Virus record (IMG/VR): IMGVR_UViG_3300035158_000183
Span: 64,001-128,000 of that record
Length of the DNA: 64,000 bases
DNA from: a virus
Direction: 5' to 3' (one strand)
Shown here: positions 19,746 to 59,431 of the stretch, piece by piece
How positions within the stretch are numbered: the first letter of the stretch is position 1
Layout: each line of letters begins with the position of its first letter
Notes under the pieces: generated by a model
Database searches by the model: none
What the model was told of the DNA's origin: nothing
Seen by the model: only the letters and a program-made list of their open reading frames with translations
Program-made: the position numbers and the translations under genes

Positions 19746-23282
<3,537 letters not shown>

Positions 23283-43200: not shown

Positions 43201-43728
43201 AAGAACAAATATCGTATTTATAGCTGGGCTAGAAACACCAAGTGATTTACGCACCTTACCGTTAAACACATATACTAGTGGATTGTGAGTAAGCTCAGCT
43301 ATCAAACGATGAAGCTTTACTGATTGCGCAGGACCCTCTGGGAAAACTAGTGTTATAGTAAGCACCATGTCTTGTAGGCCTTTGGTGGCCACTACCGGGG
43401 ACTCTGATCTAAGCGTTTCGGCTACGAATACATCATTGTGGGACTCGATCTGGATGGCATTCATTGGCACATCAGACAGCGTGATATCATTGAGCATCAG
43501 GAAGTCGTCAGCAAATTCACGGTATCCTAGCTCGGAGAGAAACTCCTGTTCCTGGAGAGCAGCCGTAGGTCTGATAGTCCTTGCCCGTGCTTCCTGGAAC
43601 TCTAACTCCAGCAGCTCTTTAGGCACAGGGATTGACTGACCTAGAGGGTCCGGTAGCTCCATCTCATCAGAGATTGGGTCTCCATGTTCATCTAGTACAG
43701 GTAACTCATCTGAGGTTTTTCTAGGCAT
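37258..43728 (-). CDS. Giant baseplate hub (gp27-like) protein with an internal papain-like cell-wall hydrolase domain
   Basis: 2156 aa. C-terminal GVKVQIRLGY...VFLGSIVEI...IVCQGYGAEL and YQGELIVTGNEKLKPYD...IEVEAVEQVF are hub motifs. Internal KCNIMFYETLHRAGYQVP (Cys435) and WSKHVMLL (His508). Confidence 0.75.
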   Translation of the reverse strand: MPRKTSDELPVLDEHGDPISDEMELPDPLGQSIPVPKELLELEFQEARARTIRPTAALQEQEFLSELGYREFADDFLMLNDITLSDVPMNAIQIESHNDVFVAETLRSESPVVATKGLQDMVLTITLVFPEGPAQSVKLHRLIAELTHNPLVYVFNGKVRKSLGVSSPAINTIFVLETGTLSNSATPGQLILTLTLHHFNFKPFSNHFWYNTTFPNVSKRRPTPERELLLGDLTSYEASAHSLDYEAEKMVNDIREGLLPLRGEEPNVPVNFPGASDAWMYYADHMQKNTPGVGTTNSDIVGFTLQMLEHHNPPDKTQKLGRGVVADVLKEQDGFPSAAAIYNATNAPLVETDSQGQITTATQQAAKQASVPGQEVPVFLKRSKRSWQSAREELWKWDREPWRKRGKLELGKQLSPHLADKETGETVHYEHKEKCNIMFYETLHRAGYQVPIQARAKGKGFGYFGCRQTVRAAQHNARWLLRLTGQSAKNIQKVIDAGIPVGIVWSKHVMLLTRVHHIGYAADKTIISIYCQAVDQKSKRAGPPKTRLASNTKSGIEIFQALPIGVRPKLAKRTQHMDVSKGPNEKKPEQTKQQEQKKPRPQPTEGTAAKSEAIPGKPTELPKDVRSQQARNKWIASYNAKGWYYYSEDPKLRNIFAKDVQLYVSSNPDDYRDSVFAKNMVLSGLSVTFGHRIVPIKLLSQDTYTWQFLGAGNKTGTLSFTFTGVEGREGADALKKMIFRARENARRFNAMIPYAGSMRVESSHPVTDETNNILALLSIRDIVVTDVQESSVEGSVDQHQMNVSFITQDFAEERLDRYIPTDISAKRQIVSGIMKFLKSEKPKKLSNDPQDDDRRNIIPKPSIIEPRLYEVAHENQVKQEQGYWVAGHGRPWKVKDPYFPGWLAEAVIQAADICQKTQNEMPPVVWKTAPDSNETWETAYRTWGAEGVLFGQVKNIPNEDKPSTAIVKKGPAAQAEMMAELDSPRSHYTRVKHDRVGTWNDMYNGKFSTNGAWATNREHARVFNKWLNSMERVIRQVQSHVLDERFDNYFPGIRQQRLEATALAVGECYADMNLPEVPLVSEGTDSQQRLPAIPLPPEFYIYDDSKEDSVVSALTDVNNMETFLRRHVRNEVASIQRYLHDTMLGGSYLSYNLPRILESRKIYLEKFAGVDRAAGEITFLDYEQMMQEGTNAWEPVYYRPDDPDYQAKGPAAWFKTVSTGLKATDYTTAQFNFMQNLTHMSEYVQSGRPLEWHSSDVMPEPEKLIEAMYDVNWRALSFGPNPDYKTADKKLSGTPDSQQTQKSKEEIKRAGGFVEWGDLGPRATRLSDGSYTVGNNKEEVQAAADAQPSAWGVVKDQYFALLGGVTRLAGKLGINPLAMAVEAIGDVQKLVDQKAENRANLIRAGGITEILKGLDHDVAKGKFGEGSKVKNTAALGTSIALGNKKNDLSMRRAFPTFKIYFIEDDADEDIKVNGRVVRAFDDFYSYSCVQEIRIIRSRKVAADLAIIRITNIGDTLLRRRWGEKAQYIKDHEAKYGINAERATGIFADTELENPFENMILQDGVKVQIRLGYAANPDLLESVFLGSIVEIAPSEDGKILEIVCQGYGAELEGVELGPLSDGKVFYSSQEVLSGAILHPSIVHFGRRSDYNRFLTSEIRHKLRGGHGQSILYQLNPASLITEWGRRETLSQLFKNPHRNEPQDDNIFAPPPKVYATTWMKYWDNACAYRPIKQTPWEIFREHELRHPGYAALAIPYGHSPRMTMFFGAKGQHYWSRPPSDMEMLLADSATRGIRHLKGLEVSKLIPNEEFRSSMRKLAAANPKMANAIAIALTSSAPAHSVETQVSALFGRYKPFRNYHYFDSVHHILKNTIRTNRNGVPNEVEVLYFDNDNLLEEEDAEDLVDNLQALQRSDSGVLACKLDENIPDEYLRSYREEFPSCITVDMAKRYVQGLFARHLRDAYQGELIVTGNEKLKPYDVCLINDSSINMIGPIEVEAVEQVFNRDFGFISIITPDMCVVVNDFYAQAAIDTACEALSYAYGFDQPQSGVSLTALTSPLPLMAMTAAVKIINWTQDAVPVITNPLTLGGKPFVSVACGAGRSSLFVGLHGRWYQYWDDLETAWDKLDIGEELFGAALDISESFWGFLGDTGGLEEAEL

Positions 43729-43734
43729 TTCTTG

Positions 43735-46700
43735 CTACAACCTCTCATGGATTCTATTAGCCAGACGTTGCGGACTCAAGGCCTCTCGGTTGTCTACTGT
43801 TCTAATCCGGGTCCGACCGCCTAAGTCTCCAGCTTGTCTCATGAAATTCTGGCCCATCTGGTTCGCATCAGGTGTAGGTATTCTAATACTAGCACGAGAT
43901 GCGGATCTCATTCCACTCATGTCGTACACCTTAGGCGACTGCATTATCCTTGCTGTTGGAGGACTCATACCCTGTCCGGCTGCAGGACCAATATAGTCGT
44001 CCCCCAGGTTCCTGCCACCAGCTGCTCCCTCTTTCGGTGCCGACAGCGAACCAGATACTGATGGGGCTGCTAGCATTACGCCGGCCGCCAGACTAGCCCC
44101 TATCATCAGTGGGGCTCTGGCATGGCGCAAAGCCCCGAAGACAGCTGAAGTTCTAGTCTTAGCCATACGCAAGGCCCTGGTGGCATTTTCGGTGAGGCTC
44201 GGCTGCCCGTAAGCTTGTCGCTGCATGACTGCTTGTGCCACATCGAGGGAACCCGTACGACGCTTGTAATACATGTGTATTAAGGTATTTAAGTCATCTG
44301 GCACGCGGCCTTTGGCCAACTGTGCTTCCTTGACAGCAACGTCTACATCTGCACCAACTGCACGTACACCACTTATGATGTCTTCCGCAGCCTGTCTGGG
44401 GCTGAATTTCAGTGTTCTAGCACCCTCCCGACCGGTCACAGGATTAGTGATGCTACCAGATACTACACGATCTTCTTCGCCCATTATTCTCTTCAGCACA
44501 CTCTCCATCCCACTTGCATCTTGTTGCTGTATAGCATGGGCAATATCTTGATACATCTGACTCTGGTAGGCTCCGTGCTTACCACCAATAGCGGCTTCTT
44601 CTAGGTGCCAGAACAATTCAGCCATTGGACGATACTTCTCTGGAGCTGCGTACTGTAGGCCCAGTTTGGCTTTCTGTAAAGCTATATTAACCTGCGGGGT
44701 GGCTATTTTGGCTGTTGTGAGGTTCGCAGCTCCCTGCATCATAGCCTCACGTCTTGTCATTTCAGCGATACCCTTAACCCCTCCAAGCTTTGCTGCCTGG
44801 CTCTTGATCAGATCTTTCATAGCATAATGATTGAATAAATAGCTGGTATATCCTTCAGCAATTTCACTATCCATCTTGCGGGTTAGTCTGTTAAAGGTGT
44901 CTCTGTCTGATATAGCAGCTATAGAAAACGCATCTTTATCAAAATCACCTTTCATACCTACCATGGGAGATATATCTACTTGGCGTTGTACGCCACCAAT
45001 AGTCAATGACCCCTCTTGGTATGGTGAGGCTATTAGCTCGTCTGCTAGATTCCGGTCTACCTGAAACCGCGCGAATTGGAAACTCTCTGGTCCGGTGAGA
45101 GGGTGGCGCCAGACACCCGCAACCACAGCCTGATTCTTCTTTAGCAACATTTCTTTCTGGAACTTCAATAGCTCTCGCTGGTCATCCGTCTTGGCATTCT
45201 CCAGCAACTCATCCATCATTCTCTGGGCGGTGCGTGGGGAGACACGGAAAGCTCCAGCAGCTTGGGCTGTCTGTTCCGCAGTTTGTCGGACACCTGTCAG
45301 ATACCTGGTTCCCAACAGCTTGCCTTTAGCAATGGTTGCCTGGCGCTCTGTGGCAGCTACAACCTTGCTCCGTAATGAGGCAGCTGCGGCCTCAATTTCT
45401 TCTGTAGCCGCCCCTCTAGCTAGCTGATAGCGTAAATTTTGTAGTTCCTGCATAACATCCGTATCAATCATACGGCCGCCCTGAGCACGGAACTGCTGCA
45501 TAAGCTCTGGGGCTTCCTCAAAACCTGGCACATATAGCCGCTTGGCGCCCCCTAAAGCTTCTATATCCTGGCCTAACGGGACATACCTTCCTTGTGCTCT
45601 CCGCAAGTCTTCTTGGGTCATCTGTGCCAGTGTTTTCTCAGCAGTAGGTATATCCCCAGTCCATCGTTCGACAAGGCCTTCTTCACCCAGCACAGTGCCC
45701 ATCATACGATTAGCTGCTACTAAGTCAGTTTTGCCATAGGCTCGAGTACCCAGCTCTGCTGCCAATGCTTGGCCCTCCGCACCCTTCATGGCTAACAAGC
45801 GCATGCCAGCTTGCTCAATTGTAGCCATGCCACCTGCACCACCTTCAGCTGCTAGATCACCCAGACGACCCTTCATAAGCCCCATCACACCAGTGGAGTC
45901 TGCCACTGCCTGACCAATGCCGAGGCTATCTGCTACACCCTGATCCATCAGACCGAAAGTGAGGCCCATCTCTTCAGCAGTAAACCCAAAACGCTTGGCT
46001 GTTCTTGTCATACGCCGCTGCAGATCGAATACAGCACGGTCAGCAGTTGCTGCGTTCAGGCTACTGACTCCCATGATACGAGCTGGATCCTCTAAAAAGC
46101 TTCGGGCCACAGCCTCGCTTCCAGCCAGTGTGCCGGCATCTATCTTGCCAGCGGTTATGAGAGACATAGCCTCCATCTGCTGAGTCAGCTGGGCCATTAG
46201 GTTACGTTGGACCAGCTTGCCAGACCACATAGCCTGCACGGCCTGTCCGCCTATCTCTGTAGGTGCGCCGGCTACCCCGAGCATGCCAGCTAATTCTTTC
46301 TGCGTTTGAGCCCTACCCATGAACTTAATATCTTCACTGAAAAATTTCCACCACTTATCTCGACCTATGCGGTGCCGTTCGCGTACGTACACCGTAGCGG
46401 CATGATCGTCCGTAAGTTCGGCTGCAATAACTTCAGCAGCTTCCCCGCCTGCTTGAGCCTCTGCCCATAGCGGTGCGCCAGTGTGGCGCTCAACTCCTAT
46501 AAACCCTTCTTGTCCTATAGGAGTAGCGAATTCTCGCACTTCTCCGATGCGAGCACCCTTAAGCTTAGCCAGTATCTCTTCATTCACCCTGAGGCCTTCT
46601 CGTAGGTTTATCTTCTTTGCTACAACACGCTCATACTCCATCATATCGGCTGCTTGCTCTGCGATAAGTCCCTCTTCCAGGAACATTCTCTTGTTCAGTT

Positions 46701-48228
46701 CCTCAGCGAGAAAGTTTCCTTCGACCATTCCTCTCTGTAGGGCCTGCTTCTCGTTAGCAGTCTTGGCATAGAACGTTACTAGCTGAGGAGCAGTATAAGC
46801 CTCGGCTGCCGTAGCCGCATGTCCACCGTGTACCATTCTCTGATAGGCTGGGCCCTGAATCTTGCGTTCTAACCGGCTATAGTATTCGCCAAAAGTACCA
46901 GCGAATGGTGTGGCCTTAGCCTTAGCTTCCGCCGTGACACCCCACTCTCCCCTAATAAACTGGAAAGGTTGTTGTTCAGTACCCACTAAACGGCCTAGTG
47001 GGCCATATAGCTCTTCGGCAGGTGTCATACGCTCGTGCACGCCTGCCATAAATACACCTCTGGCTACGGGATCCGGACCGCCAACAGGCCACAACTGCCG
47101 TCCGCCTGCTGCAGCTTCCTCCACCATCTTTCCGCGTAATTCTTCAGTCATTTTGCCTGCATACACTGCTTGCTGGCCCAACATCCGTGCTCTAGCCCTG
47201 CCTCCAGAAGGCAGCACTGCTTCAGGCAAGGACCAAACTGCCATTGCTCTGTGTGATGCGTCCCGGTCATGAAGAGCTTCTATGATTCGATGATTTATCT
47301 CAATTACTGTGTTCTTAACACCTGTAGTGGTCTTCTGTCTGGATATGGCGTTGGCCAGAAGATCTACGTACTCATCAGCATAGTTGCGTATAGCTCCTGT
47401 CTCACCATAGGCACGCCGGGTTCTATATCTGGCTGTGAGTCGCTGTCCGCCATAGGCCATCCCTGCACCCTCTAGCGGAATATTTATAGCTTCTCTTCCG
47501 ATAGCCGCTCTTAGTACAGGAACTTCAGCAAACTTACCGCCACCTAGTGCTTCCCGGACCATCTCCACACCACGCCAGTCTATCTCCCCGCCAGCTTTGC
47601 GCATAGCTTCATCCAGCCTCTCCTGTATGGCCACGGCTTTGGGAAAGTCTTGAATAGGTTTTACTGGTCTGTCAATGGTCGTGCCCACAAACTCGCCCGG
47701 TGATATGGCTGCCTCCGCTCTGGCCGCCCATGGAGTGCGTCCGCCTAGAGTGGGATCTGCTGTTAGAGACCGCAGGCGCCCAGCAAAGACATCAGCATCA
47801 CCCAGCAAATCCTGAATCTCAGCAGCAGCTTGCCCATAAGCCTTCTTGTATGTAGACTGGCCCATGATATTTTGGAAAGCTGTGTAAGCTTCCTCTTCAC
47901 TATAACGGCCACCTGCCATAATAGCTTCATAGGCGGCAGCGGCTATATCATGCTGCAGCACCTTGCCGCCTGGGCCAATCTTGGATAGCTCGTGAATAGC
48001 CAGATCTGATGTGTCCACCGTGCTCTTGATGGTGCGTTGCAGGTTGAACCCACCCATACCAGGTACTCTTGCCGCTACTTCGCCAGCAATATCTCTGGGC
48101 ATTGTAGTGAAAAGACCCCTGAGAGCGGGATGGGCCCGGTACAAACCTACGCCAGCACCTCCCAGCAGAGCTGCACCTGCAGTAAACCCCCAGAGTGGTG
48201 AACGTTCTTGATAATTGTTATCTGGCAT
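43735..48228 (-). CDS. Putative single-chain two-barrel (beta+beta' DPBB) RNA polymerase, likely virion-associated
   Basis: 1497 aa. Beta-like motifs in order: FLEEGLI, VYVRERHRIGRDKWWKFFSEDIK, GQAVQAMWSGKLVQRNLMAQ, GGMATIEQAGMRLLAMKGA. Then beta'-like motifs: GKLLGTRY, VSPRTAQRM, WRHP, SPMVGMKGDFDKD (44932-44949). Hydrophobic segments at both ends. Confidence 0.72.
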   Translation of the reverse strand: MPDNNYQERSPLWGFTAGAALLGGAGVGLYRAHPALRGLFTTMPRDIAGEVAARVPGMGGFNLQRTIKSTVDTSDLAIHELSKIGPGGKVLQHDIAAAAYEAIMAGGRYSEEEAYTAFQNIMGQSTYKKAYGQAAAEIQDLLGDADVFAGRLRSLTADPTLGGRTPWAARAEAAISPGEFVGTTIDRPVKPIQDFPKAVAIQERLDEAMRKAGGEIDWRGVEMVREALGGGKFAEVPVLRAAIGREAINIPLEGAGMAYGGQRLTARYRTRRAYGETGAIRNYADEYVDLLANAISRQKTTTGVKNTVIEINHRIIEALHDRDASHRAMAVWSLPEAVLPSGGRARARMLGQQAVYAGKMTEELRGKMVEEAAAGGRQLWPVGGPDPVARGVFMAGVHERMTPAEELYGPLGRLVGTEQQPFQFIRGEWGVTAEAKAKATPFAGTFGEYYSRLERKIQGPAYQRMVHGGHAATAAEAYTAPQLVTFYAKTANEKQALQRGMVEGNFLAEELNKRMFLEEGLIAEQAADMMEYERVVAKKINLREGLRVNEEILAKLKGARIGEVREFATPIGQEGFIGVERHTGAPLWAEAQAGGEAAEVIAAELTDDHAATVYVRERHRIGRDKWWKFFSEDIKFMGRAQTQKELAGMLGVAGAPTEIGGQAVQAMWSGKLVQRNLMAQLTQQMEAMSLITAGKIDAGTLAGSEAVARSFLEDPARIMGVSSLNAATADRAVFDLQRRMTRTAKRFGFTAEEMGLTFGLMDQGVADSLGIGQAVADSTGVMGLMKGRLGDLAAEGGAGGMATIEQAGMRLLAMKGAEGQALAAELGTRAYGKTDLVAANRMMGTVLGEEGLVERWTGDIPTAEKTLAQMTQEDLRRAQGRYVPLGQDIEALGGAKRLYVPGFEEAPELMQQFRAQGGRMIDTDVMQELQNLRYQLARGAATEEIEAAAASLRSKVVAATERQATIAKGKLLGTRYLTGVRQTAEQTAQAAGAFRVSPRTAQRMMDELLENAKTDDQRELLKFQKEMLLKKNQAVVAGVWRHPLTGPESFQFARFQVDRNLADELIASPYQEGSLTIGGVQRQVDISPMVGMKGDFDKDAFSIAAISDRDTFNRLTRKMDSEIAEGYTSYLFNHYAMKDLIKSQAAKLGGVKGIAEMTRREAMMQGAANLTTAKIATPQVNIALQKAKLGLQYAAPEKYRPMAELFWHLEEAAIGGKHGAYQSQMYQDIAHAIQQQDASGMESVLKRIMGEEDRVVSGSITNPVTGREGARTLKFSPRQAAEDIISGVRAVGADVDVAVKEAQLAKGRVPDDLNTLIHMYYKRRTGSLDVAQAVMQRQAYGQPSLTENATRALRMAKTRTSAVFGALRHARAPLMIGASLAAGVMLAAPSVSGSLSAPKEGAAGGRNLGDDYIGPAAGQGMSPPTARIMQSPKVYDMSGMRSASRASIRIPTPDANQMGQNFMRQAGDLGGRTRIRTVDNREALSPQRLANRIHERL

Positions 48229-51200
48229 TACCTAACTCCCATCCTCTTGTGGGTTTCTCGCACTAATTCATCTCTAGAGTCAACGATTTCAATATCATAC
48301 TCATCCGGTCCTTTAGTAGCCAGACCACACCGCATCACCCTGCTGCCACTACCTCCATGGACCTTGGCTAGTGTTTCAGCATTCAGCTTGTGTATCATAA
48401 CATCTTCTAGCTCAGCACGGGCTTGCATATCTCGTATAAGGTCTTCATTAATATACGGTTTTCTAGCTAGGGCTCGCTTCCGAGCACCCCAAAGATCGAA
48501 CTCATGATGGTCGAGTCCGGCCATCTGCACATACTGAAGCTTAACATCCTCCATATCAACTGATGGACTATTATGATAGATTCCAATTGGAGAACAATAC
48601 ATGTGCTGGTCTTCAACTTCAAAATCGAGCACCGTGCCTTCGTATTGGGATCTTTCAATGGTCTCTACTCGATAAGCTATAAAGTTTTCACCTACTATAG
48701 CTGAAAGAGAAGAGCTAAGTGACTCTACTGCATATTGGGCTTTACCATTTCTCTTCTTTGGCCCATGCAAACTAGCAGGAATACCTTGTGCCTCATATAG
48801 CCGTTTGGCCATATAGCATAATTGTCTATTAGCAAGAATAAGTCTCCCCCGCTCATCTTTAGAAGCATCCCCTGTATTAAGGCCATCTAATAAAGCTGCT
48901 TGGCTCTTCTGAGTAATATTCTCTAACCAAGAAGGAGAATATTTTTGATCACAATATCTACCTACCCAATGATTAATAAGCCAACCGAAAATACTATTTG
49001 CTACTACTAAATATGCGCTTTCACTCTTAGGCTTCTTCTTAAATCTGATGATGCTATCTAATCCAAATTTATCTTTAATGATTTTTTGAGCTAATTCTAG
49101 AATTGGGACTTCATCTATATGCGCTGTAAACTGTACTCCTCTCATTCTGTCTCCAACAGCCCATGTGTTCCCTCCTGCTAAGTAATAGCCAATTAACCAA
49201 CAAGTAGCTTCATCTAATTTGATAAATCTATTGATTGGTTTAATTCTTCCTGTCTTCGGACGTAAAGTATCATCAAGTATCAGAGTATTGTTTGGAAAAC
49301 AATTAAGCTTACCAATATCTATTACTGGATCTTCATCAGTATGTTTTAGTAAAGGAATAGGCAAGTACGTATTTGTTGTAAGTTTACCTATAGGCATCCA
49401 TTTAGCAGAATAAGATTCATAATGCTTTGTAGTACAGAAATTACATTTCCACATTGTTGTTGCATGCGTGCATACAGATTCAGGCTTTAAATTGTATTTG
49501 CATCGTTCAGTCTGAATCCCAAGCACAATATGATTCTCTGTTGCTGCCATACAATAAACACTGTTGTGATGAGTTTTAACAATTATAATATCTTCATTTG
49601 TCTGTCTCTCAAAAACTTGTTTCACTTGGTTTTCTCCTTGCAAGGTAGTTAAAGACTGATCTAATTTTACGTCACTTGCATGGAGAATTCTACCATCTGA
49701 TGTTAAGATATCTTGTTTCGGAGGAACACACCACCCTAGCCAGTCTGCGCCTGGCAAGGAGTGGGTTTTGAAGTATTCCTTAGCCTTAAGTTCGCGTATC
49801 CATTCATCAAATGGGATCTTTCCATCTGTCTCGGCTCGCCACTGCTCTTCCATCTCCGGTGTGGCCCCGAAGCCTTCGGTCTTGCGCATAAGAGCAGTCG
49901 TAATTAGTGTCTGCTCATCTTCCTTGGTGGCTATACCCGCCTGCTCCTTAGCTCTAGCAGCTCCTGCTTCCTGTTGTAACCACTTGGACATATACAGCCG
50001 TTGTTCATTCTCAGGTATCAGGGACAGTATCTCCTCGCGCTCTTCTGGTGATCTGGCACCTGTGAAAGCAGCAAAGAAGTCACGCTCTCTGCGCGGCAAG
50101 GCCCTCATAGCAGCCACTGGTGACCCGAAGACGTCCAGCCCGAACATGGTCCGCTGCTGGAGTTCCTGTTCCTCCCTCACATCTGACCACCTATTATTGT
50201 GGCGCGCAATACGTTCTGCACGCTCTGCCTTCACCCAATCCAGCATATCGAAATATTCATTAATGTCACGACGTTGGCGAATTTGTTCAGGAATTCTGTT
50301 GAAACCTATAGCGTGTAGTGCCATGTCGGCTGCTGGCTGTAGAAAGTTCTCCACAGGACGATTCCAAAATGCTGCCTGGGTGCCAATAGCCTCTGAAGCT
50401 ATGTACTCCTCAATGGCTGATCGTTGTCTGATAAGCTTGGATGCCGGAGACATAGGCGTTAGATACTCCATAGGGGTCTCAATACCATGCAAGATAGTCT
50501 CGCTCATGCGTCCAGCCAAACGCTCAGCAGGAGTAAATCTTAGCTGCTCGAATTCATCGCGTAGCTCCTTGGCCTCGGCATACTTCTGCTCCGCCAGGAC
50601 TTGCCCGTAGTCCTGGTCGCCCATCATGGCTACAGCCTTCATGCGGCTGCCGCGCTTGGTCACATCATAGCGGCGGGACTCCATCTGAGGAGCCTTGATA
50701 GTAATCTTCTGCCCCTCAAAGTGCTCAGTGGCGAAGTCCATTGCCTTCTGCATGTTGGTGATGGCGCCCACGCCCTGCAGCTCGATAACCATGTCGCCGA
50801 ATTCTGCTGCCTTGATACGACGTGGATCTAAGACCTCTGTGACGGTGATATCCCTGGTGCCTAGTAGCTCTGGTCTGAAGCGATACTCAGTTATCTTGCG
50901 GCGCTGCTTCCTGGACTTGACCTGTTCCTCAACAGTTCTGACTAGCTGCTTATCTTGATCCGATAGCCTACCAAAGTTTCGCTTAGCCTTCTGTAGCGTC
51001 CACTTATATTCGTCTGACCACATAGCCACATCGCCCAGGATTTTAAGGCGGTGGACGAGTGGATACTCCTCTGGGTGGACCCCAGCTACCTCAGGATGCA
51101 GAGCCTCGTACCCAGGACCCGGCAGTCTGATTTCAGCTTCCTTGATCTTCTGGAATGGATTGCCATACTTCAGATCTAAGAAGTAGTCTTCGGGCATCCA

Positions 51201-54200
51201 GGACGGCATGGTATTCTTTAGAGGGTTATAGGTCTCAAGATAGCTTCTGGTGCGCGGAATAAAACGTCTCACTGGCTCCGAGTTGTGCAGAAGTAAATAA
51301 TCCCCAACAAAACAATGAGACTCTTCAACTTCTATATCAAAAACTTTAACTCCCGTGGCAGGCTCGGCTTTTACATTTCTAACTGAGTAATATAAAAACC
51401 CATCCTGAGTAAACTGCCTACCATTAGAGTGTTCGAAACTTTCTTCCCAATCATTGTCGAGAATAATGCGGCAATATCTATCATGTTGGTCTTTGCTAAA
51501 CTTAAGATAGGATCTAAGAGTTGGCTTGCGTTGTTCGCCCTGCGGATATTGATTGTTAGGTTTGGGAATTTCCAAGTAGTCATCTGTCACTGTGGCAAAT
51601 ACACCAAGTCTTGCCAGGACAATCCAAAGATCTCGCACTAGCCGATTAGACTTACTAGTAAACCCTCCTGAGTATTTCTCTTTATTACTCCACCCATCGC
51701 CACCAATTAAACCAGCAATTAGCTTAGGCAATAAAGAGATGGGCAGATCAATAAGCCACGCCAATTTCTTAGTGCCGGCATCGGTGCCGAATTGCTTAAG
51801 CCATCGTGCTAAAGGAATATTGTGTAGCCTTAAAGCACAACTTCCTTGTTCGGGTTTCGTAGATATGTTATAGCTAAATCCAAATCTGGCTGTGTATATT
51901 TCGCCCAAAATATGAGCTATATCCAGCTCTTCTAAAGCAAGAGTAAAAGTAATATCTCCAGCCTGTGGGTCAGCACTACCCTCAGCAATCCACCACCCCA
52001 CAAACCAAGCAAGATCACGACCGAATACAACCTTACGTGGAGTTCTTTTGGGAGAGTGCTTTTTCCGGTATGAATTTAATGCTTCCTTCGCATATTGATC
52101 GGGAACGATTTCTCTTAAATCTTTCCGAGACATAAGGGGATTATTCTCTAGTGCTTCTATAGCTTTGGCAAAATGTTTAGTGGCCCTAGAATAGATATAG
52201 TCGTCTGTCACCGTTGCTGTAGAAGCAGCGTAGGGACCAAAATCTATAGATATATCTTCGGAAGTAATACCACCGGGCAGCGGCATTACCACAAAATCAT
52301 TTGGCTCAATAGCATCAGCTCGAACCCATTGCCACGCAATCTCTGTGTCACACAATCCACAAACACTGCAATGTTTCTTAGGGCTATGTGGGGTGCATGG
52401 TCTGGCATGACTATCTCTACAGGGAATACGTTTATAAACAGCAACAGGGTGATTCCCCGTAACTCTTACCGTCTTATTACCAACCCTGGTATTGATAGTA
52501 ATCATCTGTTCGTCGGAGCCGCAGATCCTTTCAAAAACATTAAGTACTTGCTTTGTCTTCATACGGTGATCATAAACAGCATCACCTACTTGAATATCCT
52601 CGATGTTCTTCAGGCCATCCGGAGTAAAAACCTTCTCTCCGGCAGGTAAGCATGCACCTAGCGCACCACCCACATTGAGATGGCTCCATAGCCAGTACTC
52701 AGATCCGGTCTCCTTGCCCATGACGCCTAATGTTTGTAGGTTCTGGAAGAACTCCTCCCTACCCGTCATGGCATGCTCAATAGCTCCCTCAGCAAAACCG
52801 ACAAGACCTACAGCCTCACGTCTGCGGTACATAAGCTCGTTGAACAACTGGCTACCTTCTTCGGGTACTACCGGCGCTCCAGGACGCAAGCCCCCAAGCT
52901 CATACGCTGGCTCGGTTTCCTTGCGGACATCCGGTCGATGTACATACTCTCCCTCATCTAGCATCCATTCCTCAGGACGTATTAGCTTGCGAGGCTTGAG
53001 AGCTTTGCCCACTGTTGCCGCAACAAGAGGACCGAAAAATGGTACATCTTTACCGTAAGTGCCTGCAAGCGGGGCCGGCCGCTCATACTGATATTTTCTT
53101 TCGTAGTGGTACTTCCACTCGTCTGACCCGAACAGGGCCTTTAATGGATGGAGCCATGGGTCGTGTTCCCACTTCTCTTCTTCAGTACCATACATGCCCT
53201 TCTGGAATGCTCTGGTCCGCAACCTCTCCATGAAGTGAGGGCGGTAGTATTCTATGCGGCCACCCTCGTAAGGAGTAGAATTGTGCACCAAGAATGTACC
53301 CGCCTGGAATAGATGATCCGGGTGATCTACTTCGAAGTCATAGACAATATCATCATAATCTTCTGTTTCTATCGCGCAAATAACAGAGTAAAGTTTAGAA
53401 TTACAAACTTTATAGAAATATGGAATCCTACCTGGAGTCCACTTGATCCTATGCCTCCCCCTATAATCATTCTTCTCAAACTTACAAAGATAAGGATATT
53501 CTCCTAAGTTTAACAATATAGAGAATATTGCATCAAGAAGCCCTCGTCTACAAGAAGAGATAACACAGGTTCTTTGATCTAGATGTCCATCTCCACGCCG
53601 ATAACCCTCAACCAATTGTTCTTTAAAAGCTTTTGGTGCAGACATAAATACTTGTGGAAATATTTTGTCTTGTTGGCGCTCGCTATTATAAAACAGCTCA
53701 AAGAACATTCTGGCAAGCAAAGAACTGCAGATCCTTACGACCCAACAGCCTTCGTTTGTTTTCTTCTTGCCTTTCTTAAACCTTACTGTTGGTGTAATGC
53801 CAAATTCTTTCTCAGATATAGAGACAACATCATCAACTATCCATCGTTCTGATTTAGCGTGAACAGTTTCTATCATGTGGGGAATATCATTCTTATAAGA
53901 AATATTGCCTTCTGCTAAGAAGTAACCGAATAGACGGCCTAGTTCTGGTGTTAATGTTACAACTCTAGGGATTGAAGCCCCCCTAGATCTTTGAACCTTG
54001 CCACTATACCAATTCTTCTGTGCGGGGAGAAGAATATCTTCACAGATTAAGAAAAGACCAGTCTTTATCAAATCTTCAGAAATAAGCTCAGTTGATGTTT
54101 CCTTTAGCTGTGGGATAGGTATCTCTACTCTGTCGTTTACTCGAAGCCCTTTCGCTTCTACTTCAACAATTTCTTCTCCTCTAAGAACCGGAACCTTATG

Positions 54201-56060
54201 ATTCCCTGTTAGCTTGGTCTCTGTAATCCAACTAGCTCTTGTTTTGAATTTGATAATATTACCAGAAAACTTTCTTGTAAATATATTGACGACCTTAGCC
54301 TCTTCGCCATCTCTGCCTATTAAGACATCACCAATACGAACTTCATGGGCTTCCTTAAATGTTCCGGCATAACACATTGGAATCATTGAGGAATTCGCCA
54401 AGCACCTCCCGAACTCCCACCACCTACCCTTCCTGATGGGCACTTCCTTCTCACCAGAGTAAATTGCCTCCAGCTCCTCGGAAGTCTCAGTAGTACCCAG
54501 CAAGTTGAGTCCAGGTATAGCCGCCATTAGATTGCCAGAAAGCAGTCCCATGCCAGTGCTAAGGGCGCCCCAGGCTGCCACTCCACCTAGAAACCCTAGA
54601 GCCATTGGGTGCCTAGCCTTAGCAAGCAATCTACCCCCGGGTAGTTTCTTGACAGCTTTACCCAGCTTAGACTCCCATACGGCGTCAGCTATCTTATCAA
54701 CATGTTCTTTACGCAGATCTTCAGTAATATCTGCGAAGGCACGCTCGGGGCCTGCTGCGTGGCGTTGCCGAACTGCTGCACCCAATAAACCACCATAGCC
54801 GGCCAGGCCCCCCGCCAGCATACCTACGCCACCGAACCCTACGGCAGTCTTAAGGGATACCAGCCCAGGTGTCACAGCTTCCTGTTCTCGCAATGATTCT
54901 GATAGACCCAAAGCTTCTGATGCTCTTGCCCGTGCAAGGTTCAAATCAGTAAACATAGAAGCGACGCCGTAGAATAGACCTTCATCAAATCTAGGGGCTA
55001 GGGCCGTATAGAGACCGGTTGCCGCCCCAATAGCCAGACCAGCAGGTCTAAACATTTGTCCTGGTCGCTTGAACAGAAAGGCGCCAGCTGCGGCACCACC
55101 GGCAGTACCAAGGGCTGGTGCCCAAGCACTACCTTCCGCCCTCAAATAATCGTAATATTCTAGACCCTTATACGCAGCGGCCAGTCCTAAACCTTTCATC
55201 ATATACCGGCCGGCCATCTGCATAGCAGAGCCAGGCTGGACCTTCATGCTGCTGACCACAGGTATACGATTTAGGATAGGAAACACCTCGAACGGCTTCG
55301 AGAGTAGCATGTTAAGACGGCCCGCCGTAGTAGCCGCCTTGGCACGCATCAGCTTCCCAAGTATTTCACCCTTAGCCACTCGGCGCTGCATCTTCTCACT
55401 GAGCTGTATATCTTTACCAAAAATCCTAATCTTCTCGCGGAACTTGGCTCCCAATATCAGCTTGCGACGTCTCTCCGAAGGAGCCATCTCATCCAGCCAC
55501 TCCTTGTAGTCTATCGGGAGATCTAGCATCTCATATTCGCTTCTTAATAGAGCCTCATTGAGTGACTGATATTCTCCTAGTTTGGTCTTGCTAAGCCGTG
55601 CGTAGTAGTCGGCAATGGCAGAACCCTTCTGAGTGCCTGCAGTGATCTGCAGCCCCATCCCGATAGCTTTACTCTCGCGCGTTACATCACCAAATATCGC
55701 ACCGGTACGCTCCATCGTCAGACCGCCACCTGTACCAAAGATATTTCGGAGATATCCTCCGTACTGGCCTGCAGCCTTCAGCTGGGCCTCTGGCAGATCT
55801 ATTCTAGACCAGGTTTCTAGGGGCGATAGGAACTCAGAGATACGGAAGGTTCTGAGTATAGCTGCAGGGAAGGCTGTCTCGGCTGTTCTAATTCCCTGTA
55901 GGTAAACATCCCACAGTCTCCCGCCACCGTAAGGTATAAATCCAGACGCCATTATACCTGCACTAGCGAATCCCAGTTTAGCTAGCGGGGATAGTGTCTC
56001 GCTTGGTTGTGGGGGCTGTGGCCCGAAGGCTGTTATCGGATCAGCTGGCAATAATTTCAC
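48228..56060 (-). CDS. Tape-measure-position / ejection protein interrupted by three inteins (1391 aa after splicing)
   Basis: 2610 aa directly after the tail chaperones. Several Gly/Ala-rich hydrophobic helices in the first ~520 aa, three C...HN|S inteins, and a degenerate SNase-like domain at about 50570-50852. Confidence 0.75.
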   Translation of the reverse strand: MKLLPADPITAFGPQPPQPSETLSPLAKLGFASAGIMASGFIPYGGGRLWDVYLQGIRTAETAFPAAILRTFRISEFLSPLETWSRIDLPEAQLKAAGQYGGYLRNIFGTGGGLTMERTGAIFGDVTRESKAIGMGLQITAGTQKGSAIADYYARLSKTKLGEYQSLNEALLRSEYEMLDLPIDYKEWLDEMAPSERRRKLILGAKFREKIRIFGKDIQLSEKMQRRVAKGEILGKLMRAKAATTAGRLNMLLSKPFEVFPILNRIPVVSSMKVQPGSAMQMAGRYMMKGLGLAAAYKGLEYYDYLRAEGSAWAPALGTAGGAAAGAFLFKRPGQMFRPAGLAIGAATGLYTALAPRFDEGLFYGVASMFTDLNLARARASEALGLSESLREQEAVTPGLVSLKTAVGFGGVGMLAGGLAGYGGLLGAAVRQRHAAGPERAFADITEDLRKEHVDKIADAVWESKLGKAVKKLPGGRLLAKARHPMALGFLGGVAAWGALSTGMGLLSGNLMAAIPGLNLLGTTETSEELEAIYSGEKEVPIRKGRWWEFGRCLANSSMIPMCYAGTFKEAHEVRIGDVLIGRDGEEAKVVNIFTRKFSGNIIKFKTRASWITETKLTGNHKVPVLRGEEIVEVEAKGLRVNDRVEIPIPQLKETSTELISEDLIKTGLFLICEDILLPAQKNWYSGKVQRSRGASIPRVVTLTPELGRLFGYFLAEGNISYKNDIPHMIETVHAKSERWIVDDVVSISEKEFGITPTVRFKKGKKKTNEGCWVVRICSSLLARMFFELFYNSERQQDKIFPQVFMSAPKAFKEQLVEGYRRGDGHLDQRTCVISSCRRGLLDAIFSILLNLGEYPYLCKFEKNDYRGRHRIKWTPGRIPYFYKVCNSKLYSVICAIETEDYDDIVYDFEVDHPDHLFQAGTFLVHNSTPYEGGRIEYYRPHFMERLRTRAFQKGMYGTEEEKWEHDPWLHPLKALFGSDEWKYHYERKYQYERPAPLAGTYGKDVPFFGPLVAATVGKALKPRKLIRPEEWMLDEGEYVHRPDVRKETEPAYELGGLRPGAPVVPEEGSQLFNELMYRRREAVGLVGFAEGAIEHAMTGREEFFQNLQTLGVMGKETGSEYWLWSHLNVGGALGACLPAGEKVFTPDGLKNIEDIQVGDAVYDHRMKTKQVLNVFERICGSDEQMITINTRVGNKTVRVTGNHPVAVYKRIPCRDSHARPCTPHSPKKHCSVCGLCDTEIAWQWVRADAIEPNDFVVMPLPGGITSEDISIDFGPYAASTATVTDDYIYSRATKHFAKAIEALENNPLMSRKDLREIVPDQYAKEALNSYRKKHSPKRTPRKVVFGRDLAWFVGWWIAEGSADPQAGDITFTLALEELDIAHILGEIYTARFGFSYNISTKPEQGSCALRLHNIPLARWLKQFGTDAGTKKLAWLIDLPISLLPKLIAGLIGGDGWSNKEKYSGGFTSKSNRLVRDLWIVLARLGVFATVTDDYLEIPKPNNQYPQGEQRKPTLRSYLKFSKDQHDRYCRIILDNDWEESFEHSNGRQFTQDGFLYYSVRNVKAEPATGVKVFDIEVEESHCFVGDYLLLHNSEPVRRFIPRTRSYLETYNPLKNTMPSWMPEDYFLDLKYGNPFQKIKEAEIRLPGPGYEALHPEVAGVHPEEYPLVHRLKILGDVAMWSDEYKWTLQKAKRNFGRLSDQDKQLVRTVEEQVKSRKQRRKITEYRFRPELLGTRDITVTEVLDPRRIKAAEFGDMVIELQGVGAITNMQKAMDFATEHFEGQKITIKAPQMESRRYDVTKRGSRMKAVAMMGDQDYGQVLAEQKYAEAKELRDEFEQLRFTPAERLAGRMSETILHGIETPMEYLTPMSPASKLIRQRSAIEEYIASEAIGTQAAFWNRPVENFLQPAADMALHAIGFNRIPEQIRQRRDINEYFDMLDWVKAERAERIARHNNRWSDVREEQELQQRTMFGLDVFGSPVAAMRALPRRERDFFAAFTGARSPEEREEILSLIPENEQRLYMSKWLQQEAGAARAKEQAGIATKEDEQTLITTALMRKTEGFGATPEMEEQWRAETDGKIPFDEWIRELKAKEYFKTHSLPGADWLGWCVPPKQDILTSDGRILHASDVKLDQSLTTLQGENQVKQVFERQTNEDIIIVKTHHNSVYCMAATENHIVLGIQTERCKYNLKPESVCTHATTMWKCNFCTTKHYESYSAKWMPIGKLTTNTYLPIPLLKHTDEDPVIDIGKLNCFPNNTLILDDTLRPKTGRIKPINRFIKLDEATCWLIGYYLAGGNTWAVGDRMRGVQFTAHIDEVPILELAQKIIKDKFGLDSIIRFKKKPKSESAYLVVANSIFGWLINHWVGRYCDQKYSPSWLENITQKSQAALLDGLNTGDASKDERGRLILANRQLCYMAKRLYEAQGIPASLHGPKKRNGKAQYAVESLSSSLSAIVGENFIAYRVETIERSQYEGTVLDFEVEDQHMYCSPIGIYHNSPSVDMEDVKLQYVQMAGLDHHEFDLWGARKRALARKPYINEDLIRDMQARAELEDVMIHKLNAETLAKVHGGSGSRVMRCGLATKGPDEYDIEIVDSRDELVRETHKRMGVR
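48570..49730 (-). mobile_element. Intein 3 with probably degenerate LAGLIDADG endonuclease (387 aa)
   Basis: Junctions DWLGW|CVPPKQDILTSDG and PIGIYHN|SPSV. Block B ATENHIV, motifs LIGYYLAGGN and LLDGLNTGDAS, block F VLDFEVED. Confidence 0.93.
51282..52652 (-). mobile_element. Intein 2 with LAGLIDADG homing endonuclease (457 aa)
   Basis: Junctions GGALGA|CLPAGEKVFTPDGLKNIEDIQVGD and DYLLLHN|SEPV. Block B VTGNHPV, LAGLIDADG motifs FVGWWIAEGS and LIAGLIGGDGW, block F VFDIEVEE. Confidence 0.95.
53280..54404 (-). mobile_element. Intein 1 with LAGLIDADG homing endonuclease (375 aa)
   Basis: Junctions WWEFGR|CLANSSMI and AGTFLVHN|STPY. Block B LTGNHKV, LAGLIDADG motifs LFGYFLAEGN and LVEGYRRGDGH, block F VYDFEVD. 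AT-richer than the exteins. Confidence 0.95.
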
Positions 56061-59355: not shown

Positions 59356-59380
59356 ATTTTAGACCTTCAGGAGATGGGAG

Positions 59381-59410
59381 AACCGGGTCAGGCTTAGTCC
59401 TGACCCGGTT
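59381..59410 (-). terminator. Perfect 12-bp hairpin downstream of the tube gene (terminator or RNA-stabilising stem)
   Basis: AACCGGGTCAGG-cttagt-CCTGACCCGGTT, 21 nt after the tube stop codon. Followed on the minus strand by CTCCCATCTCC, with no long U tract. Confidence 0.6.
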
Positions 59411-59431
59411 TATGGGCAGATTGAACACAGA

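What the first reader, a model, noticed from the sequence alone, without database searches (positions are those of the whole stretch)
43735..56060. Candidate coupled ejection module: membrane-active tape-measure-position protein plus RNAP with hydrophobic termini
Seen: the two genes are translationally coupled (TAATG overlap at 48228). The upstream protein has about six Gly/Ala-rich hydrophobic stretches, e.g. VGFGGVGMLAGGLAGYGGLLGAAV and MALGFLGGVAAWGALSTGMGLLSG. The RNAP-like protein has LWGFTAGAALLGGAGVGLY at its N-terminus and PLMIGASLAAGVMLAAP near its C-terminus, which is unusual for a polymerase. Inference: both are ejected, one forming a membrane conduit and the other being tethered at the entry site to transcribe, and perhaps pull in, the incoming genome. 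This is analogous to crAss cargo proteins.
Basis: inference. Interest (0 to 1): 0.7.

Follow-up and report, generated by a model that had tools for sequence, protein, structure and literature searches.

The report
Tail-operon RNA polymerase with membrane anchors
In the tail operon of an uncultured 174-kb contractile-tailed phage, a virion protein with glycine-rich hydrophobic segments is followed directly by a one-chain RNA polymerase with hydrophobic ends, so the phage probably injects its own transcription enzyme through the tail, which has been shown experimentally only for one unrelated long-tailed phage.

Summary
The genes at 48228-56060 and 43735-48228 (minus strand) overlap in TAATG. 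The quoted hydrophobic stretches are there and recur at the same positions in relatives.

The 1497-aa protein is a real single-chain two-barrel RNA polymerase. Its AlphaFold model matches beta-type chains with its N-terminal half and beta'-type chains with its C-terminal half. The catalytic residues are kept in about 100 of 103 diverged family representatives.

The upstream protein (1391 aa after removing three inteins) is the homologue of gp145 of Bacillus phage 0305phi8-36, a virion protein by mass spectrometry. Its C-terminal 860 aa are predicted to be compact, not a stretched tape measure.

The polymerase sits where 0305phi8-36 has gp146, its presumed tape measure and also a virion protein. 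The two share only a C-terminal module: a hydrophobic segment plus a tail of about 100 aa.

Gene order is identical in 11 uncultured relatives. Acinetobacter phage ME3 keeps the pair, its polymerase-like gp036 and the TAATG junction.

Ejection and membrane tethering remain inference. The segments are only marginally hydrophobic, and tight gene spacing is normal in this operon. The closest precedent is the tape-measure-fused polymerase of Thermus phage P23-45, not crAss cargo. This scan already noted the same family on another genome (e1-5819745, e1-5819750).

The parts
56777..57517 (-). First of two small genes between the tube paralogues and the giant genes, in the position of the 0305phi8-36 tail chaperonin genes orf143/144
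   Evidence: No Pfam or PHROG hit. Conserved in all 11 related loci. Position matches orf143/144 'hypothetical tail chaperonin' (PMC2147016).
56057..56773 (-). Second small chaperone-position gene. It overlaps the start of the 2610-aa gene by 4 nt.
   Evidence: No detectable similarity to its neighbour.
48228..56060 (-). 2610-aa gene: a gp145-like virion protein (1391-aa extein) interrupted by three inteins
   Evidence: Intein and LAGLIDADG Pfam hits. Intein-free orthologues of about 1390 aa in relatives. tblastn to 0305phi8-36 ORF145, ME3 gp035 and Moorella CDS0026. ORF145 is annotated 'identified as virion protein by mass spectrometry'. 112 homologues, with no Pfam family on the extein.
54534..55976 (-). 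Region of extein 1 holding five Gly/Ala-rich uncharged stretches: residues 29-47, 310-330, 339-356, 405-430 and 485-509 (nt 55920-55976, 55071-55133, 54993-55046, 54771-54848, 54534-54608)
   Evidence: five against 0.22 expected, 0 of 2000 shuffles. The same positions are occupied in relatives.
53280..54404 (-). Intein 1 (C553-N927, +1 Ser)
   Evidence: Absent from most orthologues; an insert at the same place in L002, L011 and L012.
51282..52652 (-). Intein 2 (C1137-N1593, +1 Ser), with a LAGLIDADG domain
   Evidence: No orthologue among the 11 loci carries it.
48570..49730 (-). Intein 3 (C2111-N2497, +1 Ser)
   Evidence: An insert at the same place in L004 and L009.
50526..50864 (-). Staphylococcal-nuclease/Tudor-SN-like OB domain in extein 3. 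Coordinates are approximate, mapped from residues 900-1012 of the orthologue in L003.
   Evidence: AlphaFold model of the orthologue (pLDDT 84.6, pTM 0.80). VIA-align against all PDB representatives: 1sta_A Z 9.3, rmsd 2.9, 106 aligned; 3bdl_A Z 9.4. Foldseek hits to SND1 and SNase.
48226..48230 (-). TAATG stop/start overlap between the two genes, with GGGAG just upstream
   Evidence: In relatives the spacing is -1 to +4 nt with a conserved GGAG. ME3 gp035/gp036 also meet in TAATG.
43735..48228 (-). 1497-aa single-chain two-barrel RNA polymerase. Its family has no Pfam or PHROG model.
48139..48201 (-). N-terminal hydrophobic segment of the polymerase (residues 10-30)
   Evidence: Present in 66 of 103 full-length representatives.
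45829..47568 (-). Beta/Rpb2-like half (residues 221-800), holding the two invariant lysines K628 and K635 in WKFFSEDIKFMG (nt 46315-46350)
   Evidence: VIA-align: 2e2h_B Z 9.6, rmsd 5.8, 421 aligned over model residues 11-580. K628 in 101 of 103 and K635 in 96 of 103.
44227..45687 (-). Beta'/Rpb1-like half (residues 848-1334), with WRHP..GPES (residues 1040-1049, within nt 45073-45111) and GDFDKD (residues 1094-1099, nt 44932-44949)
   Evidence: VIA-align: 7o4i_A Z 9.7, rmsd 4.3, 271 aligned over model residues 629-1114. R1041 in 103 of 103, P1043 in 101 of 103, and D1095, D1097 and D1099 each in 103 of 103.
43738..44235 (-). C-terminal module (residues 1332-1497): hydrophobic segment 1372-1398 (nt 44035-44115) plus a conserved tail of about 100 aa ending ...LANRIHERL. 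The module is shared with 0305phi8-36 gp146.
   Evidence: A profile of 103 C-termini hits gp146 residues 2378-2519 at E 8.2e-10; the best shuffled control gives E 1.7. BLASTP of gp146 to family member P0236 gives E 1e-6. gp146 is a virion protein by mass spectrometry.
37258..43728 (-). 2156-aa hub/lysin-like protein that follows the pair; homologue of 0305phi8-36 gp147
   Evidence: phrog_20474 'endolysin' at 8e-39. Conserved downstream neighbour in all loci. gp147 holds a T4 gp27 hub domain according to PMC2147016.

Best explanation
This is part of a conserved block of giant genes in the tail operon of a contractile-tailed phage of the 0305phi8-36/ME3 lineage. The order is sheath, three tube paralogues, two chaperone-position genes, a gp145-like virion protein, a single-chain two-barrel RNA polymerase, then a gp27-like hub/lysin and the baseplate.

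Shown here:
- The second giant protein has the fold and the invariant catalytic residues of a two-barrel RNA polymerase, so it is very probably an active enzyme.
- It is flanked by conserved Gly/Ala-rich hydrophobic segments.
- It ends in a module shared with gp146 of 0305phi8-36, that phage's presumed tape measure and a virion protein.
- The upstream protein combines an N-terminal region of five such hydrophobic segments with a compact C-terminal body that contains a nuclease-like OB domain.

Inferred:
- Both proteins are made late and built into the tail, with the shared C-terminal module serving as the incorporation or docking element.
- Both are expelled on sheath contraction.
- The hydrophobic segments insert into the host membrane, so that the polymerase sits at the entry site and transcribes the first genes of the incoming DNA without the host enzyme.

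This is the model proposed for the tape-measure-fused polymerase of Thermus phage P23-45, here split into separate genes and placed in a myovirus.
For: Polymerase identity:
- AlphaFold model of residues 221-1400: pLDDT 72.5, pTM 0.64.
- All 50 listed Foldseek PDB hits are bacterial RNAP beta' or beta chains, best E 2.7e-4.
- VIA-align places model residues 11-580 on Rpb2 (Z 9.6, 421 aligned) and 629-1114 on Rpb1 (Z 9.7, 271 aligned).
- In a Foldseek-independent scan of 48,161 PDB representatives, the first 15 rows are all two-barrel polymerases. They include QDE-1 (Z 9.0, 437 aligned) and P74-26 gp62 (Z 7.9, 413 aligned). P23-45 gp96 appears lower, at rank 32 (Z 6.5, 289 aligned).
- Among 103 full-length representatives of 153 family hits, D1095, D1097, D1099 and R1041 are kept in 103 of 103, P1043 and K628 in 101, and K635 in 96. 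That is seven of the eight residues listed as universal for this superfamily in PMC2919709.

Linkage:
- The same gene order is found in 11 IMG/VR loci at 28-53% identity.
- The junction is -1 to +4 nt with GGAG in all of them.
- ME3 keeps the pair, the TAATG junction and a polymerase-like gp036: family profile E 6e-7 and BFVD fold hits at 1.6e-5 and 6.7e-5.

Virion location (indirect):
- gp145 and gp146 of 0305phi8-36 are annotated as found in virions by mass spectrometry.
- gp145 is the homologue of the upstream protein.
- gp146 shares the polymerase's C-terminal module at E 8.2e-10.

Other support:
- Hydrophobic segments are conserved.
- The search for a YonO-type (PF05183) enzyme in the 174-kb record (91% complete) found none, and no other ORF of 400 aa or more carries the aspartate motif in a polymerase-like protein.
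- Precedent: P23-45 gp96 (PMC10770324).
Against: - There is no direct evidence that either protein is in this phage's virion or is ejected.
- gp146 shares only the C-terminal module with the polymerase, not the polymerase body.
- The hydrophobic segments are about 49% Gly+Ala and give positive (unfavourable) Hessa insertion sums. Only one window reaches Kyte-Doolittle 1.6. No dedicated transmembrane predictor could be run.
- Both proteins are predicted to be compact and too large to pass a tail tube folded, so unfolding or a metastable state must be assumed.
- The overlap is not specific to this pair.
- The equivalent of the eighth universal residue (Rpb2 D837) was not identified.
- No repeated promoter-like motif was seen in a crude 11-mer count.
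Confidence: 0.55

Rival explanations
1. The polymerase is an ordinary non-virion phage RNA polymerase that merely happens to be encoded in the tail operon. It acts in the cytoplasm of the cell in which it is made, and its hydrophobic ends have no role in entry.
For: No virion data exist for this phage. Phages of this lineage can carry non-virion two-barrel polymerases, such as the YonO-like orf99 of 0305phi8-36 (PMC2147016).
Against: The gene is fixed between virion genes in all relatives. Its C-terminal module is shared with a proven virion protein. An enzyme made only together with late tail proteins would arrive too late to drive the infection that produced it.
Confidence: 0.15
2. The protein is a structural tail-lumen or hub-associated component (a tape-measure equivalent) descended from a polymerase but no longer catalytic. 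The hydrophobic ends and C-terminal module serve tail assembly only.
For: It lies at the position of the presumed tape measure gp146 and shares its C-terminal module. The Gly of the canonical DFDGD is replaced by Lys here.
Against: The three aspartates, the R-x-P motif and two lysines are essentially invariant over 103 representatives that are otherwise down to about 28% identical. Only the fourth motif position drifts (A 33, G 22, K 11, R 9, D 8, N 5). That is the pattern of a conserved active site, not of a relic. The fold is compact, not extended.
Confidence: 0.1
3. Both proteins are virion-borne and ejected, but the Gly/Ala-rich segments are not membrane anchors. They could contact the tube lumen, the chaperones or each other during assembly, or act as flexible linkers. 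The polymerase would then work free in the cytoplasm.
For: Hydrophobicity is marginal (Hessa sums of +3.3 to +6.9). The N-terminal segment is detectable in only 66 of 103 family members.
Against: The stretches are uncharged and 17-27 residues long, with many small-xxx-small spacings, at conserved positions across 28-53% identity. P23-45 gp96 also has membrane domains.
Confidence: 0.2

Closest known systems
Thermus phage P23-45 gp96, the tape-measure-fused virion RNA polymerase (PDB 8H2M/8H2N; Chaban et al. 2024, PMC10770324)
   Same: It is a single-chain two-barrel polymerase encoded in the tail module at the tape-measure locus and associated with membrane segments. The published model has it tethered at the entry pore and transcribing pre-early genes. 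Structural match to our model: Z 6.5, 289 aligned.
   Different: gp96 is one 5002-aa polypeptide in a non-contractile-tailed phage, with a canonical DFDGD and a flat, clamp-less shape. Here the polymerase is a separate 1497-aa gene in a myovirus. It has hydrophobic segments at both ends, no long helical tape region and DFDKD. No sequence similarity was detectable.
Bacillus phage 0305phi8-36 gp145-gp146-gp147 block (Thomas et al. 2007; Hardies et al. 2007, PMC2147016)
   Same: It has the same operon order. gp145 is homologous to the upstream protein and gp147 to the downstream hub/lysin. gp146 shares the C-terminal module. gp145 and gp146 are virion proteins by mass spectrometry.
   Different: The body of gp146 is not a polymerase. 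It and Moorella phage CDS0027 carry a DEDD-exonuclease-like region instead. 0305phi8-36 has a separate YonO-like polymerase, orf99, which this genome lacks.
Acinetobacter phage vB_AbaM_ME3 gp035/gp036
   Same: The pairing, the TAATG junction, a polymerase-like fold, a DxDxD loop (DHDQD), the KFFS..K motif and a C-terminal hydrophobic segment are all shared.
   Different: The relationship is very distant: the family profile gives only E 6e-7 and BLAST gives nothing. gp036 is annotated only as a hypothetical protein. No paper found here describes it as a polymerase.
QDE-1/RDR2 and YonO-type single-chain two-barrel polymerases
   Same: These give the best whole-length structural alignments: QDE-1 Z 9.0 with 437 aligned, RDR2 Z 8.7 with 463 aligned. 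The domain order is beta-like then beta'-like in one chain.
   Different: There is no hit to Pfam RdRP PF05183. These enzymes have no hydrophobic termini and no tail-operon context.
crAss-like phage phi14:2 gp66 and neighbouring cargo proteins; N4 gp50
   Same: They are virion-carried polymerases that must be unfolded and expelled with other ejection proteins.
   Different: They are carried in podovirus heads, not encoded among tail-tube and baseplate genes. No sequence similarity was found, and gp66 did not appear among the listed structural matches, which does not exclude similarity.

Membership tests
Two-barrel (double-psi beta-barrel) RNA polymerase superfamily | DxDxD metal-binding triad in the beta'-like barrel | tested here: met
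   D1095, D1097 and D1099 are each kept in 103 of 103 full-length representatives (99 of 103 by hmmalign, the rest being gaps).
Two-barrel (double-psi beta-barrel) RNA polymerase superfamily | Invariant Arg and Pro upstream of the triad (Rpb1 R446, P448; PMC2919709) | tested here: met
   R1041 in 103 of 103 and P1043 in 101 of 103, lying 54 residues before the triad.
Two-barrel (double-psi beta-barrel) RNA polymerase superfamily | Two invariant lysines in the beta-like barrel (Rpb2 K979, K987) | tested here: met
   K628 (101 of 103) and K635 (96 of 103) lie in the half that aligns to Rpb2. Their spacing is 7, not 8. Assigning them to the barrel rests on position, not on inspected coordinates.
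Two-barrel (double-psi beta-barrel) RNA polymerase superfamily | Invariant Asp of the beta-like subunit (Rpb2 D837) | tested here: inconclusive
   No Asp in the N-terminal half reaches 85% conservation in the 103-sequence alignment. Misalignment is possible.
Two-barrel (double-psi beta-barrel) RNA polymerase superfamily | Overall fold: beta-like and beta'-like modules around two barrels | tested here: met
   Z 9.0-9.7 to Rpb1, Rpb2 and QDE-1. All of the first 15 rows of an unbiased scan of 48,161 chains are such polymerases.
Two-barrel (double-psi beta-barrel) RNA polymerase superfamily | Template-dependent RNA synthesis | not testable with these tools
   Needs recombinant protein.
Virion RNA polymerases (N4 gp50, phi14:2 gp66, P23-45 gp96) | Protein present in purified virions | not testable with these tools
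   Only indirect evidence: the C-terminal module is shared with the mass-spectrometry-verified virion protein gp146.
Virion RNA polymerases (N4 gp50, phi14:2 gp66, P23-45 gp96) | Encoded within the late/structural gene block | tested here: met
   The gene lies between the chaperone-position genes and the hub in the window and in 11 loci.
Virion RNA polymerases (N4 gp50, phi14:2 gp66, P23-45 gp96) | Early transcription resistant to rifampicin and independent of new protein synthesis | not testable with these tools
   Needs an infection experiment.
Tape-measure-fused polymerase (P23-45 gp96 type) | Polymerase and a long tape-measure region in one polypeptide | tested here: not met
   The polymerase is a separate 1497-aa ORF. 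The frame relation to the upstream gene varies among relatives (spacing -1 to +4 nt), so no conserved frameshift fusion is likely. Residues 221-1334 are filled by the polymerase fold.
Tail tape measure protein (for the upstream 1391-aa extein) | Gene directly after the tail chaperone genes | tested here: met
Tail tape measure protein (for the upstream 1391-aa extein) | Similarity to known tape-measure families, or a long extended helical architecture | tested here: not met
   No Pfam or PHROG tape-measure hit. The C-terminal 860 aa are predicted as a compact multidomain body (pLDDT 84.6, pTM 0.80). The N-terminal 530 aa were not folded.
Integral-membrane helices (for the hydrophobic stretches) | Segments of about 19 or more residues hydrophobic enough to insert | tested here: inconclusive
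   Uncharged runs of 18-27 residues. Kyte-Doolittle 19-residue means are 1.4 or more in only two of the segments (1.51 in the upstream protein, 1.70 at the polymerase C-terminus). Hessa sums are +3.3 to +6.9. DeepTMHMM and TMHMM were not available.
Inteins (three inserts in the upstream gene) | Cys1, C-terminal His-Asn followed by Ser, Hint domain, optional homing endonuclease, and presence/absence among orthologues | tested here: met
   Pfam Intein_splicing at 3.9e-23 and LAGLIDADG_3 at 1.7e-20. Boundaries as. Orthologues lack or carry them at the same sites.

The most novel reading that the evidence does not exclude
The middle gene of this tail block is a swappable enzyme-cargo slot. A shared C-terminal module (a hydrophobic segment plus a docking tail of about 100 aa) loads whatever enzymatic body is attached into the tail. 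That body is a two-barrel RNA polymerase in this lineage and in Acinetobacter phage ME3, and a DEDD exonuclease-like body in the Firmicute phages 0305phi8-36 and Moorella MTATph1. After contraction the cargo is anchored, together with the multi-segment gp145-like protein, in the host inner membrane. Genome entry is then coupled directly to transcription (or to nucleic-acid processing) at the pore. This would be a general tail-delivered enzyme platform in myoviruses.
Probability: 0.3. Interest if true: 0.85.

Novelty: new variant of a known kind. Interest (0 to 1): 0.62.

Why it matters
Virion-delivered RNA polymerases let a phage start its programme without the host enzyme. They are established for N4-like, crAss-like, phiKZ-like and P23-45-like phages. 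This finding adds a large, unannotated family: 153 clusters at 50% identity, with no Pfam or PHROG model. The family is encoded inside the tail operon of contractile-tailed phages.

One member, gp036 of Acinetobacter phage ME3, belongs to a cultured phage, so the idea is directly testable. The hydrophobic ends and the module shared with the presumed tape measure of 0305phi8-36 suggest how a large enzyme could be loaded into, and released from, a tail. That question was left open for P23-45.

It also means that 'tape measure' or 'minor tail protein' labels in this lineage hide enzymes.

Tried and rejected
- Sequence searches with the polymerase found nothing in Pfam or PHROGs, in PDB sequences or in 50,697 phage records by tblastn.
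- The narrow family profile found nothing in the ME3, 0305phi8-36 or Moorella phage genomes. hhalign against single sequences was uninformative. Only a broader 103-sequence profile and the fold search linked ME3 gp036.
- The extein of the upstream protein has no Pfam hit and no PDB sequence hit. The ESM Atlas gave only scores of 0.83 or less for extein 1.
- The two chaperone-position proteins show no mutual similarity, unlike gp143/gp144 as described in PMC2147016.
- A second polymerase was sought. There is no PF05183 in the genome. Other large ORFs with D-x-D-x-D are DnaE and a kinase/RNase-H-like protein.
- The BFVD hit to a second 798-aa ME3 protein could not be tied to a gene with an acidic triad, and it has no counterpart here.
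- A crude count of repeated 11-mers found no promoter-like motif.
- A conserved frameshift fusion of the two genes was rejected because the frame relation varies among relatives.
- The crAss cargo analogy was rejected as the closest one because no similarity was found and the genomic context differs.
Full report
**Setting.** The window is bases 64001-128000 of a 174,034-bp IMG/VR virus record estimated to be 91% complete. Every sizeable gene in the window lies on the minus strand. Read 5' to 3' on that strand, the order is:
- a tail sheath (60134-62050; phrog_16991 at 3e-63);
- three paralogous tube-type proteins (phrog_9206, whose 0305phi8-36 members are noted as tail tube in the GenBank record);
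- two small genes without family hits (56777-57517 and 56057-56773);
- the 2610-aa gene (48228-56060);
- the 1497-aa gene (43735-48228);
- a 2156-aa protein with an endolysin-type PHROG hit (37258-43728);
- three small genes, a baseplate-J-like protein (phrog_6) and fibres.

So the finding lies in the tail operon of a myovirus.

**Observation.** The stop of the 2610-aa gene and the start of the 1497-aa gene share one base in TAATG, with GGGAG a few bases upstream. The quoted hydrophobic stretches are all present.

In the upstream protein there are five runs of 18 or more residues without charged or amide side chains: 29-47, 310-330, 339-356, 405-430 and 485-509. Shuffles give 0.22 on average, and 0 of 2000 reach five. 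In the 1497-aa protein there are two, at residues 10-30 and 1372-1398. That count is only weakly unusual by itself (90 of 2000 shuffles).

The seven segments are 49% Gly+Ala and rich in small-xxx-small spacings. Sums on the Hessa biological scale over 19 residues are +3.3 to +6.9. Only two of the segments hold a window that reaches a Kyte-Doolittle mean of 1.4. They are therefore marginally hydrophobic, not classical membrane helices. No dedicated predictor was available.

Tight spacing is the rule in this operon, so the overlap is not special to this pair.

**The upstream protein.** Pfam finds only intein and LAGLIDADG domains. Most orthologues are intein-free proteins of about 1390 aa. Some carry an insert at the first or third site.

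The extein has no Pfam, PHROG or PDB-sequence match. By tblastn, however, its C-terminal two thirds match ORF145 of Bacillus phage 0305phi8-36, gp035 of Acinetobacter phage ME3 and a Moorella phage protein. ORF145 is annotated as identified in virions by mass spectrometry.

An AlphaFold model of the last 860 residues of an intein-free orthologue is confident and compact (pLDDT 84.6, pTM 0.80). Its only recognisable domain is a staphylococcal-nuclease/Tudor-SN-like OB fold (Z 9.3-9.5). This is not the extended helical architecture expected of a tape measure. The hydrophobic N-terminal 530 residues were not modelled.

**The downstream protein.** It has no Pfam, PHROG, PDB-sequence or phage-record match, but 30 homologues at 28-53% identity. 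An exhaustive profile search found 153 cluster representatives, 103 of them full-length at 1355-1696 aa.

A model of residues 221-1400 (pLDDT 72.5, pTM 0.64) gives these matches:
- Foldseek: all 50 listed hits are bacterial RNAP beta' or beta chains.
- VIA-align: the N-terminal half aligns to Rpb2-type chains (2e2h_B: Z 9.6, rmsd 5.8, 421 aligned) and the C-terminal half to Rpb1-type chains (7o4i_A: Z 9.7, rmsd 4.3, 271 aligned).
- A Foldseek-independent scan of 48,161 PDB representatives: the first 15 rows are all two-barrel polymerases. QDE-1 (Z 9.0, 437 aligned), plant RDR2 (Z 8.7, 463 aligned) and P74-26 gp62 (Z 7.9, 413 aligned) give whole-length alignments. P23-45 gp96 scores Z 6.5 at rank 32.

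Over the 103 representatives, D1095, D1097, D1099 and R1041 are invariant. P1043 and K628 are kept in 101, K1217 in 101, and K635 and S1049 in 96. That covers seven of the eight residues given as universal for the superfamily (PMC2919709); the eighth was not located.

The Lys that replaces the usual Gly in DFDGD is one of many residues tolerated at that position in this family: A 33, G 22, K 11, R 9, D 8, N 5. This pattern argues for an active enzyme.

**Linkage.** Eleven IMG/VR loci keep the whole order from sheath to baseplate. In all ten loci examined (L010 repeats L005), the two genes are separated by -1 to +4 nt with GGAG upstream. Because the frame relation varies, a conserved frameshift fusion is unlikely.

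In ME3 the gp035/gp036 junction is again TAATG. gp036 (1603 aa, 'hypothetical protein') carries R-E-P...S-S-Q, G-G-D-H-D-Q-D and K-F-F-S..K motifs in the same order, plus N- and C-terminal hydrophobic segments. It is hit by the 103-sequence family profile at E 6e-7, against more than 1 for shuffles. Both halves of its BFVD model match our model, at 1.6e-5 and 6.7e-5.

**Which gene is the 'tape measure'?** In 0305phi8-36 the order is chaperonins orf143/144, gp145, gp146 ('hypothetical tape measure protein', a virion protein by mass spectrometry), then gp147 (hub with lysin domains). The polymerase therefore sits in the gp146 position.

A profile of the last 170 residues of the polymerase family hits the C-terminus of gp146 (residues 2378-2519) at E 8.2e-10, against a best shuffled control of 1.7. 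The alignment extends well past the hydrophobic segment into the conserved tail; see also the BLASTP hit at 1e-6.

The bodies differ. gp146 shows no polymerase similarity. It is homologous to the Moorella phage protein in the same position over a DEDD-exonuclease-like region (E 7e-11). That Moorella protein reaches the Pfam RNase_T cut-off (24.2 bits against a cut-off of 24).

So the middle gene of the block looks modular: a shared C-terminal module with a variable enzymatic body.

**Interpretation.**

Shown:
- a conserved pair of genes;
- an apparently active two-barrel polymerase;
- conserved marginally hydrophobic segments in both proteins;
- homology of one partner, and of the other's C-terminal module, to proteins found in virions of a related phage.

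Inferred:
- both are built into the tail;
- both are expelled on contraction;
- the hydrophobic segments insert into the host membrane;
- the polymerase transcribes the entering DNA there.

This is essentially the model proposed for P23-45 gp96, whose polypeptide also contains membrane domains. That model leaves the same open problem of how a large folded enzyme passes a tail tube.

The search for a YonO-type enzyme in this genome found none, which fits a need for an injected enzyme. Host-polymerase use cannot be excluded, however. The idea that transcription pulls the genome in is untested. Hardies et al. thought such a mechanism too slow for genomes of this size.

**Novelty.** Searches of the held literature found the P23-45 work as the only description of a polymerase at a tape-measure locus. 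Nothing was found on a myovirus tail-operon polymerase, nor on ME3 gp036 as a polymerase. The same scan had already noted and followed up this family on another, 198-kb, genome, with the same reading (e1-5819745, e1-5819750).

I rate it a new variant of a known kind. The specific additions of this finding are partly confirmed as observations: the paired membrane-segment protein, the hydrophobic termini and the shared C-terminal module. They remain hypotheses as mechanism.

Noticed in passing
window 48570-54404: Three full inteins (two with clear LAGLIDADG hits) interrupt a virion structural gene at conserved motifs. Orthologues carry none, or one at the first or third site, so the inteins are mobile within this gene family.
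   Followed up: partly
G000:C1:27715-32676 and 39309-43883 (outside the window; loci L013, L014): The ribonucleotide reductase and the DnaE-type polymerase of the same genome also carry intein/LAGLIDADG inserts. This is an intein-rich phage.
   Followed up: no
L017:14624-22237 (0305phi8-36 gp146) and L018:17300-21229 (Moorella phage CDS0027): The 'hypothetical tape measure' of 0305phi8-36 and its Moorella counterpart contain a DEDD/RNase-T-like exonuclease region. gp146 shares only the C-terminal module with the polymerase family.
   Followed up: partly
L019:16385-21196 (Acinetobacter phage ME3 gp036): This protein is annotated as hypothetical but is a distant member of the polymerase family by profile and by predicted fold. 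It offers a cultured system in which to test the idea.
   Followed up: partly
BFVD entries A0A7R7G2L5, A0A8S5SD80 ('Minor tail protein', Siphoviridae sp. ctnpt50) and A0A075BUT7 (Microcystis phage MaMV-DC): These are the best viral fold matches of the polymerase model (E 1.5e-9, 2.2e-9 and 1e-4). One is labelled a minor tail protein and one comes from a cyanophage, so the family may reach further than the loci examined.
   Followed up: no
window 57533-60112: Three tandem paralogues match phrog_9206, labelled 'major head protein'. The 0305phi8-36 members are noted as tail tube in the GenBank record, so the PHROG label is probably a mis-annotation.
   Followed up: no
window 50526-50864: A staphylococcal-nuclease-like OB domain lies inside the gp145-like protein. 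Whether its catalytic residues are kept was not checked.
   Followed up: partly
G000:C1:145250-150166 (outside the window; locus L015): A 1638-aa protein has weak RNase-H-superfamily and ABC1/protein-kinase-like hits.
   Followed up: no
window 19746-23276: A collagen-like, GC-rich (up to 62%) tail-fibre gene has many PHROG tail-fibre hits.
   Followed up: no
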